64,000 bases of DNA, taken from Negaprion brevirostris. Lineage: Eukaryota. Positions 5,631 through 36,867 of the stretch are shown one piece after another. The notes beneath the pieces were generated by a model. The model searched no databases and was not told where the DNA came from. It was given only the letters and a program-made list of their open reading frames with translations. The DNA lies in NCBI GenBank assembly GCA_030324005.1, contig JARDVH010000106.1, positions 42,740,599-42,804,598 on the forward strand, given 5' to 3'. Each line of letters opens with the position of its first letter. Within the stretch, counting starts at the first letter, position 1. A program made the translations under genes and the position numbers.

Positions 5631-7230
5631 CTGTATGGACAAACATGTGTTTCACATAGTTTTGCTTTGCAGTGAAGGTTTTATTACAAAGAGTGCATTC
5701 ATAGGGTTTCTTTTCAGTTTGTCCACTTGTACCCTGGATTGTTGACTGAGATTGTTGGGGATGCAACTGTGTAGTAAAATTTGTAATATTGGGTTGAGGA
5801 ACTGTTATAAATTGTGTCTGTTGGCTTGTCAGTGGTTGTGGCAAGGTGAACTGAAACAGTTTGCCACTGGTAGTGCTCTGAGTGGTGAAAAGTGTTGGTA
5901 TGTAGGTACTCCCAGCAGTGCCGATGACTGGAGTAGTGCTGGTTAAGGTCAGTGGCATTCTCAAATTGGTGGCAAGGGTGTCTGATTGCCTCAGATAAAG
6001 CTGGGTGGTTGTCAGTGGCTGAGTGTTTTGCGTCACTGAAATTACAGAGTTTATCGCAGATTGCTGCAACTCTTTGTCACTTGCGATGTTTCCATCACTG
6101 CTTTGAGGCCCTGTGGTGTCCATTTCAGTTTCATAAGCCCTATCCGGGGAAGAGGGATTTATGCTGTCGGGCTGCTGGCTGTCTTCAGCAGGAAGCTCAT
6201 TCTGTTCGGCTGGTCTTACGTCTGATTGTCCCCCTCTGCTCATGCCAGCAATGAACTGCTGGTCTATTGGATCGGTTTCAGTCCCATTGGAAGAGCTAAC
6301 GCCAGAGTCAAAGCTTTCTCCTTTTGGCTCACTCTCAGTACCTTCAGCTTGGTCAGTATCCTCATTGCACTCTTCGGATTCATTTTGCTCTGAAGTGTTT
6401 TTTTTCTGCTGCCCATAATAATCGTAATCATATTCATCTTCAGCCTCCTGCTTGATGTGAACGTTGCCTGCTATGGTCTGGATACGAACTGGTCGTGGTT
6501 GCTTGCGGCAGTGTGTGGTTTCTGGGGTGGAAAGATATCTCTCCATCTGCTGTGTGCGTTCTTGTATTCTTGTTATCCATGCTGGATCATTTAGATTCTC
6601 TTCTCTCTGCATAACTAGCTGTGTGCTGTGATGGCTGACCACTGGTGCACTGTAGTGGGATCTCTCTCCTGTGCCATTTTGTACTGGCACTCCAGAGCAG
6701 GCATAAAGGGAAGAATAAATTCTTTCGACATTATGCTGTGAGCGAGCTTGAACATAGCCAGATTCTGTATCACTACTCTGCCCCGATGATCCAGACTCTG
6801 GTGTTCCTCGTGGTGTTATTTGGTTCGATTCCCTTGTTGTAGAGTAACCACTGCTCACCACCGTTTGTGAAACAATGCGGGTGCATTCATCAATAACTGT
6901 TTTGATCTGCAGAATGCTGGCTGCTGTGAGGATTTGTAAGGCTTCACTTTGGGACACTCGGAGCACTCCACTGTACATGAAGTCAATCAACTTCTGAACA
7001 GACTGCACTGAGACGACAGATGGAATCTCAATGTCACTGTAGCCCAAAAGCAGTTTGTCTTGGAAGAAGGGGCTGCCAGCGGCCAATACACAGCGATGAG
7101 CTCTGAGCATACTCCCATGGATTCTGACGGTCACATCGCAGAAGTGCCCCCGGTTTCGTTGCTCATTTAGTGTCTCAAGCACAGAGTTGCTGAAGTTGTG
7201 AAGGTTGATACTGTGAATGCGCTCTGTCAT
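5631..7230 (-). CDS. ZBTB20: ZBTB20 main coding exon (BTB/POZ domain, linker, first C2H2 zinc finger); the full exon is 5631-7250
   Basis: The ORF begins [61 protein letters not shown] (ZBTB20 BTB) and ends [28 protein letters not shown]. The acceptor is tattttctgttcaaaaccag|GT (AG at 7252-7251) and the donor is CATACAG|gtaagt (GT at 5630-5629). The remaining fingers must be in an exon outside the window. Confidence 0.98.
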
Positions 7231-9299
7231 TCCCTTCCCATTGATGTTACCTGGTTTTGAACAGAAAATACTTGTTTTTACAGTTTCAGAAAAGTTAGCT
7301 GATGACCTGTGCAGAAAGATAACATGCTACTTTAAGTTAACAATCCAAATGCCTTAAATGAAAACAGTGAAAAAGAAAAACACAAGCAATTAAAAACAAC
7401 ACTGATGGTATTTTACTGCTATTAAAGTTCCAAAATTAATGCAGAACATTGTTGCTCTACAATTGCTTGATGGTAAGGAGAATATTAAAATAAATGTTTA
7501 AAATTAGGAACTGTTATACTTGAGAGTGAATAAAAGATATAATATACAAAAAGAGAGAGTAATATGTCACATTGTAGAAACCAGGATCAAGCATCTGAAT
7601 GATGGAATCAGATGCTTAGTATTACATAAGTATTGATTAACAATGCTTAGAACTATCATATTATTTTAAATGTATATAATTTCAAATTTAGTCTGGGCCA
7701 GCACTAATGCTGAATGCCCATGTGCTCTAGAAGCATGGCGCATATTGTAGGAGATAATAAATTATGATACCATTTCAGGTTCTCCAAATAACATCTGCAG
7801 GTGATTACTGGGATAATCTACATTCAACATCTATTCTATGCCAATAAAGATACTGTTTATCGTAGAAAGATTAATTTCATGTGATCACTGTGAAACAATA
7901 TTATTGGCATTGATGTCAACATTTAAAAATTATCTTTTAAGTCCAACTCTTTAAAAAAGGGCTGGCAGTATTCTTTCTACCTAATCTCCTGTAAAATGTA
8001 CATGCATAATTATTTCAAATAACATATTTTGATTTTATTCAAGTATGTGTAAAAGGTTCATCAGCATTTTCCAGTATTTGTTAAATACCAATATATTGCA
8101 AATTAAATGGATGCTCATGGCTGTGATCACACCAAACACTTAATAGAGAACTAGGAATATATTTGAGCGAGGAAAGGAAAAAAATGAACAAAATGGGTAA
8201 GTGGGAATGATTACAGCCTAATCAAATGATGACAAAATGAATCCAAAGCTTAGGTGATTCATGACATCCAAATCTAAGGATCAAATCATATGATTTGTAA
8301 TCATTCCTTCCTGTCCAATACATTGTATAACATATAGACTAAAATTTGTAGGAGTGCATTTTTTAATCTTTCTTCCCTCCCTTTCCCATAGGGGACAGGC
8401 ATCAATAGCCATGATGCTCCATTAGATTAACATATTGTACAATCATTGTAAGATTACATATTTAATTAGATTTTTAAAAAATACTTCCATAATTAAAAAA
8501 GTTACAAGGGCAGAAGTTTCTCACCACTGCAGATGTATGTGGCCACCATCTTGAAAATCTCCTTGTGTGAAGAAAGAAATTCATGGGCCATCTCCTCTCT
8601 TGCAATTGAGCATATTACTGGAATGATTCATGGAGCTAAGATGTTTGACCTTACTGTATATAAAGACAAAACAAAGTTCAAATACTACAGATCTACTTCA
8701 TATGGTACAATTTTGTACAGCAGCCAACACTGATTTTACCAATTAGATGATTCAAAGCAACAGAGCTAAAAATCTAGCTAAAATTCTTGGTCCAATGCAG
8801 AATTTGCTCACTTAATGACCTAAGGAGGCCAGGAATTTTATTTTTCACCGATACTACGGAGATTCTCAAAATGGTGGTCAGAAATGGAGGATGAGGAAGG
8901 CTGGATGCCAAGAAAGATGAATATTTTTATTAAAGATTGTTGGAGCAATAATGAATTCCAGTTATTTTGTAAATACTGATGGTAAAACAAGATACATAAC
9001 ATATCAAAAAGAAGTTCTGAAGCCCAATTAATACATTTATATGAAATAATATTAACAAAATAATCTGAAATAACCACTGGCCATTTTTCAAAATTACAAT
9101 AAACACAGCACCACAAATTATAAATCAAAAGCTCTGATTAGAATTTAGTCTAGGAAATTTGACAAATTTTCATTGTTAGTTTTGATTTCTTATTCATTCC
9201 AATGGGATAATTAAATAGAATTTCACCAAAACAAAAATAATACAGAAACAGGAATACAGTTTTATAGCTTCACATGTATGCTGACAACAGACAGCTCTA

Positions 9300-22099: not shown

Positions 22100-22725
22100 C
22101 CTTGATTTCTAGGGACATAGAGAATTGAAAAGTAGGAAAGTTATGTTAAAATTATATGAAACCTTGGTAAGATTACACTTTGAACTGTACTGTGTACAGT
22201 CCAGTTCTTCATATTTTTAAAGGGATGCACAGATACTGGAACAGATACAAATAAAGGTTCACAAGAATGATGCAGAAAGTGAAGATAATATACTTATCCG
22301 GAAAGGTTGAAAATAGGCTAGGTGGCTCTTCTCCAGAAAAAGAGAAAGCTAAAGGGTGACCTGACAGAAGTCTTCAAGATTATAAAAGGGTTGGTGGGAT
22401 AAACATAGAAAAGATGGCTCCACTTTTGAAAAGAACAAAACTAGGGGCGATAAATCCAAGATTGTCACAAATGAATCCAACAGGGCATTCAGGAGAAAAT
22501 TTTTTAGCTACCAGGGGTCAGAACATAGAACATGCTATCACAAGTAATAGTTCAGGAAATCAGGATAGATACACCTAGGAGGAAGCTACATGAATATATG
22601 AAGGTGAAGGAAATAAAAGGATATATTGTTAGGGTTATTGGAAGAATGGCAGGAGGAGGGTAAGGAAGCATAAATATTGGCATGGACTTGTTGGGCCTGA
22701 ATGGCCTATTTCTGTGCTGTAAATA
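22100..22725 (+). mobile_element. CR1 LINE 3' fragment
   Basis: agagaaagctaaagggtgacctgacagaagtcttcaagattataaaaggg (RKLKGDLTEVFKIIKG) and the tail gggcctgaatggcctatttctgtgctgtaa. Confidence 0.8.
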
Positions 22726-22922
22726 TTAATGTTTCTGAAATCATTATTTGATTAATTGCCAATGCAAGCCTGACTGATACATTATGGCTCATAAGTTAAG
22801 GTGTGACTTACTTGCACTTTTGACTACTAGATGCTCGCCCCCAATCTTAAATGCAACTAGATGTATCCATTTAAAAAATAAATAAATTGATTAAGAAATG
22901 TACAATCGTTGAAGATACGTAC

Positions 22923-23090
22923 AATCAGAGGAGAAGGTGAGTAAAGCAGCCGTCTCTCTGAATTTTCACGTGGACTACAGTCTTCTGTTGTGGAAGACTA
23001 GTCCTGGAGCATTATCTGTTTGCGCAATTCTCATTCTTCAAGGACTGCAGTTACTCCAATCCTTCATTACTCAGTTGATCTTTATTTTTG
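22923..23090 (-). other. ZBTB20: Probable ZBTB20 upstream exon (168 nt), apparently non-coding/uORF-only in this species
   Basis: Acceptor gtttctatttattctttctttcag|CAA and donor TCTGATT|gtacgt. Joined to the BTB exon it reads TCC TCT GAT T|GT AAC ATC AAT GGG AAG GGA ATG = SSDCNINGKGM, matching the recalled human junction SSDCDISCKGM. The sequence is unique and repeat-free. Confidence 0.75.
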
Positions 23091-23517
23091 CTGAAAGAAA
23101 GAATAAATAGAAACTAAGCACAGATCTCAGCAACTCAGTCTTCTAAAATATCAGCAACAGCAGCAAATGCAAAAGAGCAACAAATGATGTGCATTTGTGG
23201 TGCTGTGCATAAACTATTCATTACTGCTACCACACCATGTAGAATTATTTGCATCACTGCCTCCTAACCAATTTCATTAACTGTAATTTTTTGTAAGTGA
23301 CATCAGCAGGCAGCACATTTCTCACTAAAGGCATCAAAGCTAATTTTAAAATATGCCTCACTACATATCAAAAATGGGTGAAAATTCAAAATCATCCATC
23401 CTACATTTTAGTGGAAGGTTATAAATCAGTACTGGATACTATTTATAGTCTTCTGATCTCGGTCTGAAAATCAAACAAGAATTCCCATTCATGAAAACTG
23501 TACCCAAGCTTACTTAC

Positions 23518-23613
23518 ACAGAGTGCTGCTTGATCAAGGGACCAGAGGGCTGCTGCACCCAGAGACTCTTACCCCAATATGCATCAGGGCTACAGGAGAA
23601 AAGGACGATAAGG
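23518..23613 (-). other. ZBTB20: Candidate ZBTB20 leader exon (alternative acceptors at 23613 or 23589)
   Basis: Acceptors ttttatttttattttgctttag|CC and ccttttctcctgtag|CC, consensus donor CTCTGT|gtaagt (23517-23512) and an internal donor GGG|gtaaga (23572-23567). It lies 427 nt from the 168-nt exon. Confidence 0.5.
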
Positions 23614-25938: not shown

Positions 25939-27289
25939 CCATCAGTTGGAAGGCTGTGGACAGTGGGAAAATTACAAGTAAATTCAGAGTTTGAGCAAAC
26001 AGGTAGATGCAGTGGGTGATGTGTCAAGTCTGGCATTGAGATTGGGGGCGGCAGAAAGGTGTCGGGAAAAGAATAGAAAAATCAATCGATGGAAAATGGC
26101 ATACATGTGGACTCAGCAATGGGATCCTTTATTCTCACTGAGGAATTTCCCTCTCGCCTGACACAAAGTCTTTTCTTCCTGCATTTTTGCTCAAACTTTC
26201 TCTCCTCCCCTCAGAGCGGAAGGTTCTCCTTGACTTCACCTTCCATGTCAGCGGCCCACTACCTTTACAATTACTTTGATACTTCCTTTACTTCTCTCAT
26301 TACTGTCTGCTTTTGTCACACCACTAAACTTCTGTCATTTCATCATCTCATGTTGTCCACCTTATCTCGGAGTGTTCAGCTCTTCCCACCATTTTCCTTG
26401 CCTGTGTCCCTCCATACAAACTGTTCATTGGCTGAAATGTTAACCCTAACTTTCTCTCCCTGCAGATGCTCTCTGACCAACCTGTTTCCACCATNNNNNN
26501 NNNNNNTTATCAAGATTTATTCACTTGAATGTGTAATTCATTATATTAGAAATTATGATTAAATATTATACAATGCTATAATGGGCTTGGCTAACTTAAA
26601 TAATGGATAGAACTTAGAGGAATTCCCATGGTAGCTGTAGTTTATTTTTGCAATCCCATTGTAACATTTTTGCAAGAAGCCAATGACTGATTTAGAATTT
26701 TTTCTGGCACAATGTGATTGTATCGCTCATAAAAATGTTATTGATAAAGAATTACACTCATAATATAGTGACATGGAACAAACCAGAAAACTTCTACATG
26801 AGATATCAGGCAAAGAATATAAAACTATTCCAAACCTGACCTTTCAATATTCTATTACTGAATAACTTTAAAATGTTTTCCATTATGATTATTTCTATTC
26901 AATCACAAAAATGCCAACTGGGAGAAAACAGCCTGTTTCACTAGAAATCTATCCACCACTGTGCACAGGGTGCAATGCAGCAATTTCCCAAGGCTCTTCT
27001 GACAGCACACAGCACTTTGCAAACCCACGGCCTCTACCACCTAGAAGAACAAAGGGCAGCAGGCGTGTGGGAATAAGACCACTTGTAAGCTCCCTCTAAG
27101 TCGCAAACCATCCTGATTTGGAAATATAACACCATTCTATCACTGTTGCTGGGTCAAACTCCAGGAACTCCCTCCTGTAACAGCTCTGTGGGTATATCTA
27201 CACCACATGGATTAAAGGTGGTAGTTCATCAACACCTTCTTGAAGCCAATTAGGGATGGGCGATAATGCTGACATTACTGGTAACATCC

Positions 27290-28900: not shown

Positions 28901-30309
28901 AGGACCTAGAAATATATAACCATATTCAACATGTTAATACGGTAACCAGGGTGGTCACCATACTCATATCATATAACAGACTCAGTATCAGCCTCTATAT
29001 GTGAGTGTAGGAAACTGAAAAACAACCACCAAAGTAGTTCAATTTCAGTTCACTAAAGCTTTAGGAAAAAGAATCTATGGTTAATTCCAGATTTCATAAA
29101 GGACCAGTTTTACTAAAATTGTGTAACAGTTAATCAAATAAATTGGTGAATTTAATGGGGATGATGCGGGTACTGAAAATAAATGAGGAAACCACATATA
29201 TTCCAAAAGTCAAAAGAGGGATGGAGTCAGCCTAAGCCAAGGTGGCAAGCTAGTCATATCTAAATCTATGAGACAGATTAACGGATCAGCTGGTCTTTAC
29301 CAGTTGGATATTTTTTGAACCCCTCTCCCAACTACCTCTTTCACTTTCTCCCTTCTTTAAACGCCTCGCACCCATACTTTTGACTAGAATCTCTCTCCCT
29401 CCCTACCCCAAAACATTTTTTTTGCAAAACAAATGGAGGAATTTGTAGAAACTCCAGATTGCATAACTGTCAGGTGATACACTCTCATTTTAATGTACCA
29501 CACATTGTGCAAAGCAATGTGACATCTTGAATATTTACCACAGCATCACCTGCAGGAGGAAGAGATATTACTGTACTTGCAACAATTCCCAATGAAACAT
29601 GCACCAATTATACTGACTTGCATATACAAGATAAATTACCTTGAAAATTTGCAATGTAGCCCCTGTATTGCACAATCTGGTTTCTGGGTCCACAAAATTG
29701 TCTCATACTTTCCAAAAATATATTCCAGCTGTCATTTTATTTCTCAGAAACCTAAAATAGAAATGTAAGTGGAATTTTTACAAAAAACACATTTTGCAAT
29801 TGCATGATTGAATATATTCAGTGAATTGTCTTTCGAATATTTCACTACCCTCATTCAGGCCTCTTCTTGTCTCAAAAAAGATAGACTCTGAATGAATATT
29901 TTTATCTGATAACAATTAAGCTACTGCAGTTATATATTTTTATGCATTTTGAGCATGTGCAGTTTGCAGATTTTTCCAGAATGCAATCTGTTTACCATCA
30001 GGGCAAGAAGATATAAAGGTATGTTCACTCATGCTTTAACAGTGAGAATTAATTAAAAAAAACTAAAAGATTTTGAAATGAATTCAAATTTTGAAGCTTC
30101 CATTCAGGCAATTGACATATTCATTTAAATATATGAATTTATGTTATGAAACACTGAACAAATTCTCAAATCCCAAATGGTGCACTATTGATGAGAGTGA
30201 CAAAATTCTAACCCACAAATTTCTGACCTTTAGTTTAAAAATTAACGTTCATATATTTGAAGACTAGAATGGAGACTGAACCATCTGATGATAGGGGAAT
30301 CAGTAGTGC

Positions 30310-36103: not shown

Positions 36104-36660
36104 GCACAGGTATGGGTGTTAATCATGTGCACACAACATTCGCTACTCCTGTAAATACACTCCCACAAATTTGACTCTTTCTATTGTTCCTGGCTGCTCT
36201 CATCCCTGAGGAGCCAATCCTGCAGCCTTGTGGACCCTGAAAGATGTCAGGTATCTGAGAATAGCTGAGAATGTAGGAGTCATATATACGCTTTCGGAAT
36301 CAAGCACACGGATGTGTTTGGTGTGTGGTCACAGACCAGATGAATATTCAGGGAATAGAATCCCTTGCGGTTCACATAGTTGACAACTTGACACCACAGA
36401 GCTCCAAGCGCCACAATGACACCCTGAACCAATGGAAAAGACAGATCGGCACAAATCCTAACATTCTTGCTTTCTGGCTTGGCTGATCCCAGTTGTAATG
36501 CACTAAGTTGTATGCTCTTGTGAAGATTGCACCCTTGACCTCCTGATTGCACTCATGTGCAGAGGCTTGCAAAATTTCACAGGGGATCCTGTGGACCACT
36601 GGCAGGAGTCCCTGGTATATGAATTCAGTGCTGCAGTCCCTTTCAGTGACAGTGACAATT
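36104..36660 (-). mobile_element. PIF/Harbinger DDE transposase relic (HARBI1-like), frameshifted; the element probably spans ~35450-37400
   Basis: Collinear motifs across frames: TAALNSYTRDSCQWSTG, CEILQASAHECNQEVKGAIFTRA, FPLVQGVI, YVNRKGFYSLNIHLVCDH, DSYILSYSQIPDIFQ and DWLLRD. These correspond to the Harbinger motifs FP.V.G.ID, Y.NRKG..S.N.Q.VCD, HDS and WLLGD. Confidence 0.88.
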
Positions 36661-36867
36661 GATGCCTGCCTGCCACCACCACCTCCCCCCCCGGCCCCAC
36701 CCGCCCCCGACCCCCACCAAGTCCCTATGGGGCCAAATCTTGAAGCAGGTGACAGGTGTGATCAATCAGTTCCCTAGATATGATGTATTCTGCAGATATG
36801 GCAAATGCCATCTATAGTCCGGGTTCATCCTTGGTGTGCACAGCACACCCTGCCACTTCTTCCTCTT

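What the first reader, a model, noticed from the sequence alone, without database searches (positions are those of the whole stretch)
22923..23090. Exon that encodes the mammalian ZBTB20 long-isoform N-terminus is present but closed by a stop codon here
Seen: strong splice sites, and a junction with the BTB exon reading SSD-C-NINGKG-M in the same phase as the recalled human SSDCDISCKGM. However, in that frame a TGA lies 15 codons upstream of the donor (TGA AAA TTC AGA GAG ACG GCT GCT TTA CTC ACC TTC TCC TCT GAT T) with no ATG after it. The exon holds only short uORFs: MKDWSNCSP*, MRIAQTDNAPGLVFHNRRL* and MLQD*. Inference: the exon is an ancient leader exon, and the long-isoform extension either arose from 5'UTR in bony vertebrates or was lost in this lineage.
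Basis: partly seen in the sequence, partly recalled or inferred. Interest (0 to 1): 0.7.

Follow-up and report, generated by a model that had tools for sequence, protein, structure and literature searches.

The report
Sharks' separate long ZBTB20 start exon
In sharks, the exon that is likely the counterpart of the one giving mammals their longer form of the brain regulator ZBTB20 is spliced into the message but blocked by stop codons, and the next exon is predicted to supply a different long form that is almost unchanged across sharks, rays and chimaera, so the two branches of jawed vertebrates likely built their long forms independently.

Summary
The 168-nt exon (23090-22923, minus strand) is real. 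Spliced contigs from two other species cover exactly this exon, and three different upstream exons join its acceptor. It is closed by four in-frame stops, not one; they are shared by relatives, so this is no assembly error. That exon carries a strong-context ATG and a 22-residue in-frame N-terminus, invariant at 21 of 22 columns in 14 elasmobranchs plus Callorhinchus. Of 29 cartilaginous-fish proteins, 19 carry it and none carries the mammal-type extension; of 231 others, 41 carry the mammal type and none the shark type. One lamprey model and the ZBTB45-like paralogues start at the short Met. Orthology of the closed exon to the mammalian one is likely but statistically modest. Best reading: an old uORF-bearing leader exon that became coding in bony vertebrates, while cartilaginous fishes use another exon. 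Translation is untested; no bony-vertebrate DNA was available.

The parts
22923..23090 (-). Leader exon eL (the finding), 168 nt, phase 1/1, likely orthologue of the bony-vertebrate long-isoform exon
23071..23073 (-). In-frame stop 1 (TGA)
   Evidence: unchanged in X1, X6 and DNA run X15, not checkable in X13
23038..23067 (-). uORF1, 9 codons, ends at in-frame stop 2 (TGA 23040-23038)
   Evidence: unchanged stop in X1, X6, X13, X15
22975..23034 (-). uORF2, 19 codons, A at -3; its ATG aligns to the invariant Asn-Glu codon pair of the bony-vertebrate peptide; ends at in-frame stop 3 (TAG)
   Evidence: start and stop kept, 3 codons changed in X13
22998..23012 (-). uORF3, 4 codons, other frame
22966..22968 (-).
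   Evidence: no listed change in X1 or X13
8525..8653 (-). Exon eP, 129 nt, the observed splice partner downstream of eL; single copy in the genome
8525..8591 (-). Predicted cartilaginous-fish long-isoform N-terminus: ATG 8591 (G at -3, G at +4), 22 codons plus one base; second in-frame ATG at 8549 (A at -3, G at +4)
8581..8631 (-). Out-of-frame uORF (ATGs 8631 and 8613) that overlaps the long start at 8591 and stops before the second in-frame ATG
   Evidence: sequence only
29640..29750 (-). Upstream exon eA, spliced to eL in X1; holds ATG 29706 whose frame stops early in eL but is open if eL and eP are skipped (Stegostoma model, 17 of 23 residues alike); acceptor predicted
23518..23589 (-). 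Upstream exon eB, spliced to eL in X13 (match by eye); acceptor predicted
5631..7250 (-). Main coding exon (BTB domain, linker, first zinc finger); short-isoform ATG at 7230

Best explanation
The exon is a spliced, stop-closed 5' leader exon of an intact shark ZBTB20 gene that is likely the orthologue of the exon encoding the long N-terminus in bony vertebrates, and sharks are predicted to make their long isoform from the next exon (8653-8525) instead. Shown: several alternative upstream exons splice onto it, it splices onto eP, and every frame entering it in the main phase stops. Inferred mechanism: ribosomes scan through it, some translate its short uORFs and reinitiate, then start at a strong-context ATG in eP (29 or 15 extra residues); transcripts that skip eP give the short protein. 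Inferred history: the ancestral protein began at the short Met; in bony vertebrates this leader exon acquired an open frame that different lineages enter from different ATGs, while cartilaginous fishes fixed a different extension in eP. The deeply kept element of the leader exon would be the uORF2 start, not a peptide.
For: Spliced contigs end exactly at both splice sites and continue into eP (X1, X13). Stops and uATGs untouched by the listed changes; the only indel in X13 is +3 nt. DNA run identical over 23022-23287. Gene intact: last exon 118 of 119 residues as in catshark. eP peptide 21 of 22 columns invariant, 99.4% mean identity in 15 species, against 98.3% for the BTB region and 88.4% for the linker; the eA peptide, as a control, differs at 6 of 23 from Stegostoma. 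Census: 19 of 29 versus 0 of 231 eP-type; 0 of 29 versus 41 of 231 mammal-type. Short forms annotated in cartilaginous fishes (8 of 29). Lamprey model and ZBTB45-like paralogues start at the short Met. Orthology: eL alone of 4 exons matches a back-translated bony profile at its 3' end (0-1 of 150 shuffles reach it, 4 profiles) and collinearly in its 5' half (0 of 150 for the 13-row profile; 6, 22 and 9 of 150 for subsets); rank 8, 12 and 93 of 8172 AG..GT candidates. N-E-I is the only invariant run among 33 distinct bony extensions and the shark uORF2 ATG aligns there. The human long start is listed as conserved poor context with an out-of-frame AUG or no in-frame AUG downstream (PMC8892498).
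Against: The orthology signal is not the best in the window: a frameshift-tolerant protein profile did not list eL among its top 8 per strand, and the nucleotide profile ranked four other places higher. No bony-vertebrate or lamprey DNA was examined; protein databases show only open frames that a gene finder chose, and 149 of 231 non-shark entries are short. The outgroup is one lamprey model. The eP->BTB junction and all use of ATGs rest on annotation, not on reads or ribosome data seen here. eP's invariance could be DNA-level constraint; the locus is rich in ultraconserved elements (PMC11276968). An overlapping uORF covers the 8591 start. A human Ribo-seq catalogue lists ZBTB20 as without uORF (PMC8036502). 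uATG number is at chance level.
Confidence: 0.66

Rival explanations
1. Loss, not gain: the jawed-vertebrate ancestor already encoded the mammal-type extension in this exon and cartilaginous fishes let it decay, perhaps after eP took over.
For: The frame is open across the exon in tetrapods, a sturgeon model and a bonefish model, so it is at least as old as bony vertebrates. The shark exon keeps collinear traces with two frameshifts in the best alignment.
Against: Lamprey model and paralogue are short. Bony lineages enter the exon from different starts (mammals, squamates, turtle), and most amphibian, lungfish, gar, bowfin and teleost entries have no extension. Only 6 columns are invariant among 33 extensions.
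Confidence: 0.17
2. eP is a non-coding ultraconserved exon; its 'peptide' is an annotation by-product, and sharks make only the short protein under uORF control.
For: The untranslated start of eP is also conserved (29 of 30 letters in X13); an overlapping uORF covers the first ATG; the locus has about 50 ultraconserved elements (PMC11276968); no related peptide outside cartilaginous fishes.
Against: Two in-frame ATGs in strong context and an open frame in 16 named species including chimaera; scanning ribosomes would meet them before the short ATG.
Confidence: 0.1
3. eL is not the orthologue of the mammalian exon; the shared SSD ending is coincidence and eL is a shark-lineage leader exon.
For: Window-wide scans do not rank it first.
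Against: Two separate collinear signals, right position and phase, among only 4 exon candidates in the window.
Confidence: 0.07
4. Assembly error or pseudogene.
For: Fragmented assembly with 13 N runs in the window; the DNA run leaves 22929-23021 uncovered.
Against: The same closed frame in contigs of other species; four stops; intact single-copy gene.
Confidence: 0.01

Closest known systems
Mammalian ZBTB20 long (741 aa) and short (668 aa) isoforms (PMC4010913, PMC6169859, PMC10530547; passages seen)
   Same: Same gene, same short start Met, a long form made by an upstream exon joined in phase 1 to the BTB exon; exon choice and start choice set the ratio.
   Different: In sharks the likely orthologous exon is closed; the predicted extension is 29 (or 15) residues from another exon, unrelated in sequence, with a strong start context where the human long start is poor.
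RefSeq/GenBank models of cartilaginous-fish ZBTB20 (677-681 aa X1 forms, 648-652 aa short forms)
   Same: They already contain the eP N-terminus.
   Different: They are automatic predictions; the seven literature searches found no paper that notes the different exon, its near-invariance or the closed leader exon.
Conserved inhibitory uORFs and poor-context starts in developmental transcription factor mRNAs (Hox; PMC8892498)
   Same: uORF positions kept while the peptide changes; ZBTB20 is on that paper's poor-context list.
   Different: Translation and repression are untested here, and conservation to mammals is inferred from protein, not DNA.
ATF4-type leader with an overlapping uORF (recalled, not from a call)
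   Same: Short upstream uORFs followed by an out-of-frame uORF that overlaps a start codon (eP).
   Different: The overlapped start makes an N-terminal extension, with two further in-frame starts downstream; no evidence of stress control.

Membership tests
ZBTB20 orthologue | BTB domain plus five C2H2 fingers, best matches named ZBTB20 | tested here: met
   96% to catshark, about 72% to mammals; last exon 99%
ZBTB20 orthologue | Intact reading frame from the short Met | tested here: met
   533 open codons in the BTB exon; open last exon
Bony-vertebrate long-isoform exon | Lies upstream of the BTB exon, phase-1 donor, ends in S-S/P-D | tested here: met
   partly circular, as this is how it was spotted
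Bony-vertebrate long-isoform exon | Sequence homology along the exon | tested here: inconclusive
   significant against shuffles and top 0.1-1% of candidates, not first window-wide
Bony-vertebrate long-isoform exon | Open frame continuous with the BTB exon | tested here: not met
   four stops, kept in relatives
Bony-vertebrate long-isoform exon | Splices directly to the BTB exon | tested here: not met
   2 of 2 contigs go to eP; contigs drop rare forms, and annotated short isoforms leave a minor direct join possible
Bony-vertebrate long-isoform exon | DNA alignment and synteny with bony genomes | not testable with these tools
   no vertebrate relatives are held
Regulatory uORF leader | AUG-to-stop frames in the spliced leader | tested here: met
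Regulatory uORF leader | Start and stop positions conserved while the peptide varies | tested here: met
   uORF2 in X13: start and stop kept, 3 of 19 codons changed; only sharks or close kin compared
Regulatory uORF leader | uORFs translated and affecting main-ORF output | not testable with these tools
   needs Ribo-seq or reporters; one human catalogue lists none
Protein-coding alternative N-terminus (eP) | ATG in good context, open frame, conserved peptide | tested here: met
Protein-coding alternative N-terminus (eP) | Synonymous variation or direct proof of translation | not tested
   no eP DNA from other species beyond 30 untranslated letters

The most novel reading that the evidence does not exclude
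Bony vertebrates and cartilaginous fishes independently turned different 5' leader exons of ZBTB20 into long N-termini; the shark one has stayed nearly invariant since the chimaera split and is a functional module, while the exon that mammals translate was first a uORF cassette whose AUG survives, out of frame, inside the mammalian peptide at Asn-Glu.
Probability: 0.4. Interest if true: 0.62.

Novelty: new variant of a known kind. Interest (0 to 1): 0.44.

Why it matters
ZBTB20 patterns the hippocampus and is mutated in Primrose syndrome; its long N-terminus has been called functionally indistinguishable from the short form (PMC4010913) yet changes spine shape and hosts an autism-linked variant (PMC6169859). 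If the exon began as a uORF leader, variants there may act on translation as much as on the peptide, which is testable. It would also be a datable case of coding sequence arising from 5' UTR in one gene twice, and a 22-residue peptide as conserved as the BTB domain points to an unknown shark-lineage partner or an overlapping RNA/DNA signal.

Tried and rejected
tblastn of bony N-termini against the window and 200 kb of neighbouring DNA: no hit on eL at E 0.02 (output was cut). Frameshift-tolerant protein profile: eL not in the top 8 per strand. Region search with the mammalian extension found only 4 mammal/bird representatives among 8 candidates, too word-limited for a census. Region search for short fragments with the eP peptide: 1 hit, shark-type. 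Representative search was swamped by zinc-finger repeats; 4 of 150 rows were followed up and gave the lamprey model. AlphaFold model of the catshark long form: pLDDT 35, residues 1-536 under 50, so the helices drawn over residues 2-21 are no evidence. ESM Atlas: best 0.83, chance level. PDB search: no ZBTB20 chain, no match to residues 1-22. A match of the squamate start peptide at 27275 was judged chance (E 0.24; one search shows the DNA). No run is on record as RNA (no RNA holder listed); the contigs are taken as RNA because they join canonical splice sites. No reads were laid over eP or the BTB exon, so the eP->BTB and any direct eL->BTB junction are unobserved. Pattern searches for the X6 partner exon failed in the window and at 1 mismatch in the genome; it was then found with 2 differences. 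Place look-up in earlier findings: nothing.

Full report
Gene and exon. The window holds the large coding exon of ZBTB20 on the minus strand (7250-5631). Its product is 96% identical to catshark, 86% to Callorhinchus and about 72% to mammalian ZBTB20. The last exon lies just outside the window and is 99% identical to catshark, so the gene is intact. The finding's exon (eL, 23090-22923) has a pyrimidine-rich AG acceptor and a GT donor and is single copy. It is 168 nt, so it keeps phase. In the main frame it has four stops, at 23073, 23040, 22977 and 22968, and three ATGs. Shuffled copies give 3.5 stops and 2.9 ATGs on average, so these counts are ordinary for untranslated DNA.

Four of 22 listed runs were laid on 22700-23320. 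Contigs of X1 (2 changes) and X13 (8 changes, one 3-nt insertion) cover the exon from end to end and nothing of the introns; X6 covers its 5' 78 nt without change. At the donor both X1 and X13 continue with letters that match the start of an exon at 8653, not the BTB exon at 7250. At the acceptor three different exons are joined: eA (donor 29640) in X1, eB (donor 23518, matched by eye) in X13, and in X6 an 81-nt exon about 120 kb upstream (L013:9742-9662). The runs are only guessed to be RNA; joins at canonical sites are why I take them as such. Contigs drop rare forms, so a minor direct eL->BTB join is not excluded.

The stops are real. No listed change in X1 or X13 touches a stop or an ATG. 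Two of X13's eight changes are not listed because they lie near the contig's ends, so the first stop and first ATG cannot be checked there; X1, X6 and the DNA run X15 (identical over 23022-23287) cover them. X15 leaves 22929-23021 uncovered. In X13 uORF2 keeps its start and stop while 3 of 19 codons change residue, as expected for a regulatory rather than a peptide-coding uORF. A rough hand estimate: X13's word share of 0.18 on the coding exon means about 5% divergence if fully covered, and eL differs by 8 of 165, so the leader is about as conserved as the coding exon on average.

The missed exon. eP (8653-8525, single copy) holds an ATG at 8591 with G at -3 and +4, then 22 open codons and a phase-1 donor. 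The peptide, MAHEFLSSHKEIFKMVATYICS, is the N-terminus of the X1 models of 15 named sharks, skates and rays and, with one change, of a Callorhinchus model; a later Callorhinchus model starts at the second Met. Across 15 aligned species 21 of 22 columns are invariant (99.4%), against 98.3% for the BTB region and 88.4% for the linker; 35 of 348 linker 22-mers are as invariant. The eA frame, used in one Stegostoma model, differs at 6 of 23 residues and stops six codons into eL when eL is included. In eP an out-of-frame uORF from 8631/8613 overlaps the 8591 start and ends before 8549. The eP->BTB junction is taken from the annotated proteins; I did not see it in reads.

Census. Among proteins fetched (database entries, several per species, not a sample of species), 29 are from cartilaginous fishes: 19 eP-type, 8 short, 2 other, 0 mammal-type. 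Of 231 others with a locatable short start: 41 mammal-type, 149 short, 41 other, 0 eP-type; 152 rows without that motif were left out, about 149 of them unrelated zinc-finger proteins. Only 15 of 29 members of the largest shark cluster and 15 each of the clusters of about 660 bird/reptile and mammal entries were listed. The mammal-type frame is open across the exon in mammals, birds, turtle, alligator, lizards, snakes, one Xenopus model, one Huso and one Albula model, and over its 3' part in three teleosts. What precedes the exon differs between mammals, squamates and turtle, and bird entries are partial. One Lampetra model and the ZBTB45-like paralogue of rays begin at the short Met.

Is eL the mammalian exon? 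With no bony DNA in hand I used profiles from 13 fetched extensions. A protein profile with frameshifts did not single it out. A back-translated base profile matched eL alone among four exons at the 3' end (0-1 of 150 shuffles for each of four profiles) and, for the full profile, locally (0 of 150; subsets 6, 22 and 9 of 150). The local match is collinear over 23057-22975 with a +1 and a -4 shift, but four other places in the window score higher. End-to-end, eL ranks 8, 93 and 12 of 8172 AG..GT candidates. I put orthology near 0.9. In that alignment the uORF2 ATG falls on the Asn-Glu codons, and N-E-I is the only invariant run among 33 distinct bony extensions. That these codons spell an out-of-frame AUG in bony vertebrates is inferred; it fits the listing of the human long start as 'obligatory poor context' (PMC8892498: one section and two supplement rows seen) and is not supported by a human catalogue that gives ZBTB20 no uORF (PMC8036502, passages).

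Mechanism. Shown: exon order, splicing into and out of eL, closed frame, intact gene. Inferred: scanning through eL with uORF translation and reinitiation; initiation in eP for a form 29 or 15 residues longer; eP skipping for the short form. Inferred history: short ancestor, two independent extensions. Rivals are decay of an ancestral coding exon (0.17), a non-coding eP (0.10) and non-orthology (0.07).

What is known. Mammalian long and short isoforms arise by splicing and start choice and were called functionally indistinguishable (PMC4010913, passages; PMC10530547, passages); they differ in effects on dendritic spines and a variant in the long-specific region alters spines (PMC6169859, passages). 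The locus has about 50 ultraconserved elements (PMC11276968, passages). Seven searches (listings only, apart from the papers named) showed no paper on cartilaginous-fish ZBTB20 isoforms; the library lacks most subscription journals, and the original isoform paper was not read. The eP peptide is already in automatic annotations. Earlier scan notes on KLF4 and CPEB2 in another genome describe similar turnover of N-terminal extensions (unchecked). Divergence times and the ATF4 comparison are recalled.

Verdict. Real, partly misread, and more interesting for the exon next door: a new variant of a known kind, interest 0.44.

Noticed in passing
L013:9662-9742 (minus), about 120 kb upstream of the finding: An 81-nt exon with canonical AG/GT ends that is spliced to eL in run X6, skipping eA and eB.
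   Followed up: yes
L003:7359-7715 (minus): Last coding exon of ZBTB20 (zinc fingers 2-5), 99% identical to catshark.
   Followed up: yes
window 7241-7227 (minus): A 4-codon out-of-frame uORF at the start of the BTB exon whose TGA overlaps the short-isoform ATG; it depends on an Asn codon that elasmobranch proteins have where chimaera and bony vertebrates have Ser. A weak-context uORF from 8584 would end at the same stop.
   Followed up: partly
window 8555-8543 (minus): The second in-frame ATG of eP sits in a stretch that resembles the YY1 binding motif (recalled), which could add DNA-level constraint.
   Followed up: no
window 29706-29640 (minus): An ATG-led open frame in eA that would give a third 29-residue extension if eL and eP are skipped, as in one Stegostoma model; same length as the eP extension.
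   Followed up: partly
window 4318-4151 (minus) and 36526-36720 (plus): Places that outscore eL with the back-translated profile; probably compositional chance; the first lies downstream of the BTB exon.
   Followed up: no
window 22700-22741: A repeat: many unrelated contigs of the DNA run align here and run on unlike.
   Followed up: no
proteins P0406, P0415-P0423: Ray proteins named 'ZBTB20-like' (about 611 aa) look like the ZBTB45 paralogue by their start and BTB sequence; naming may mislead isoform surveys.
   Followed up: no
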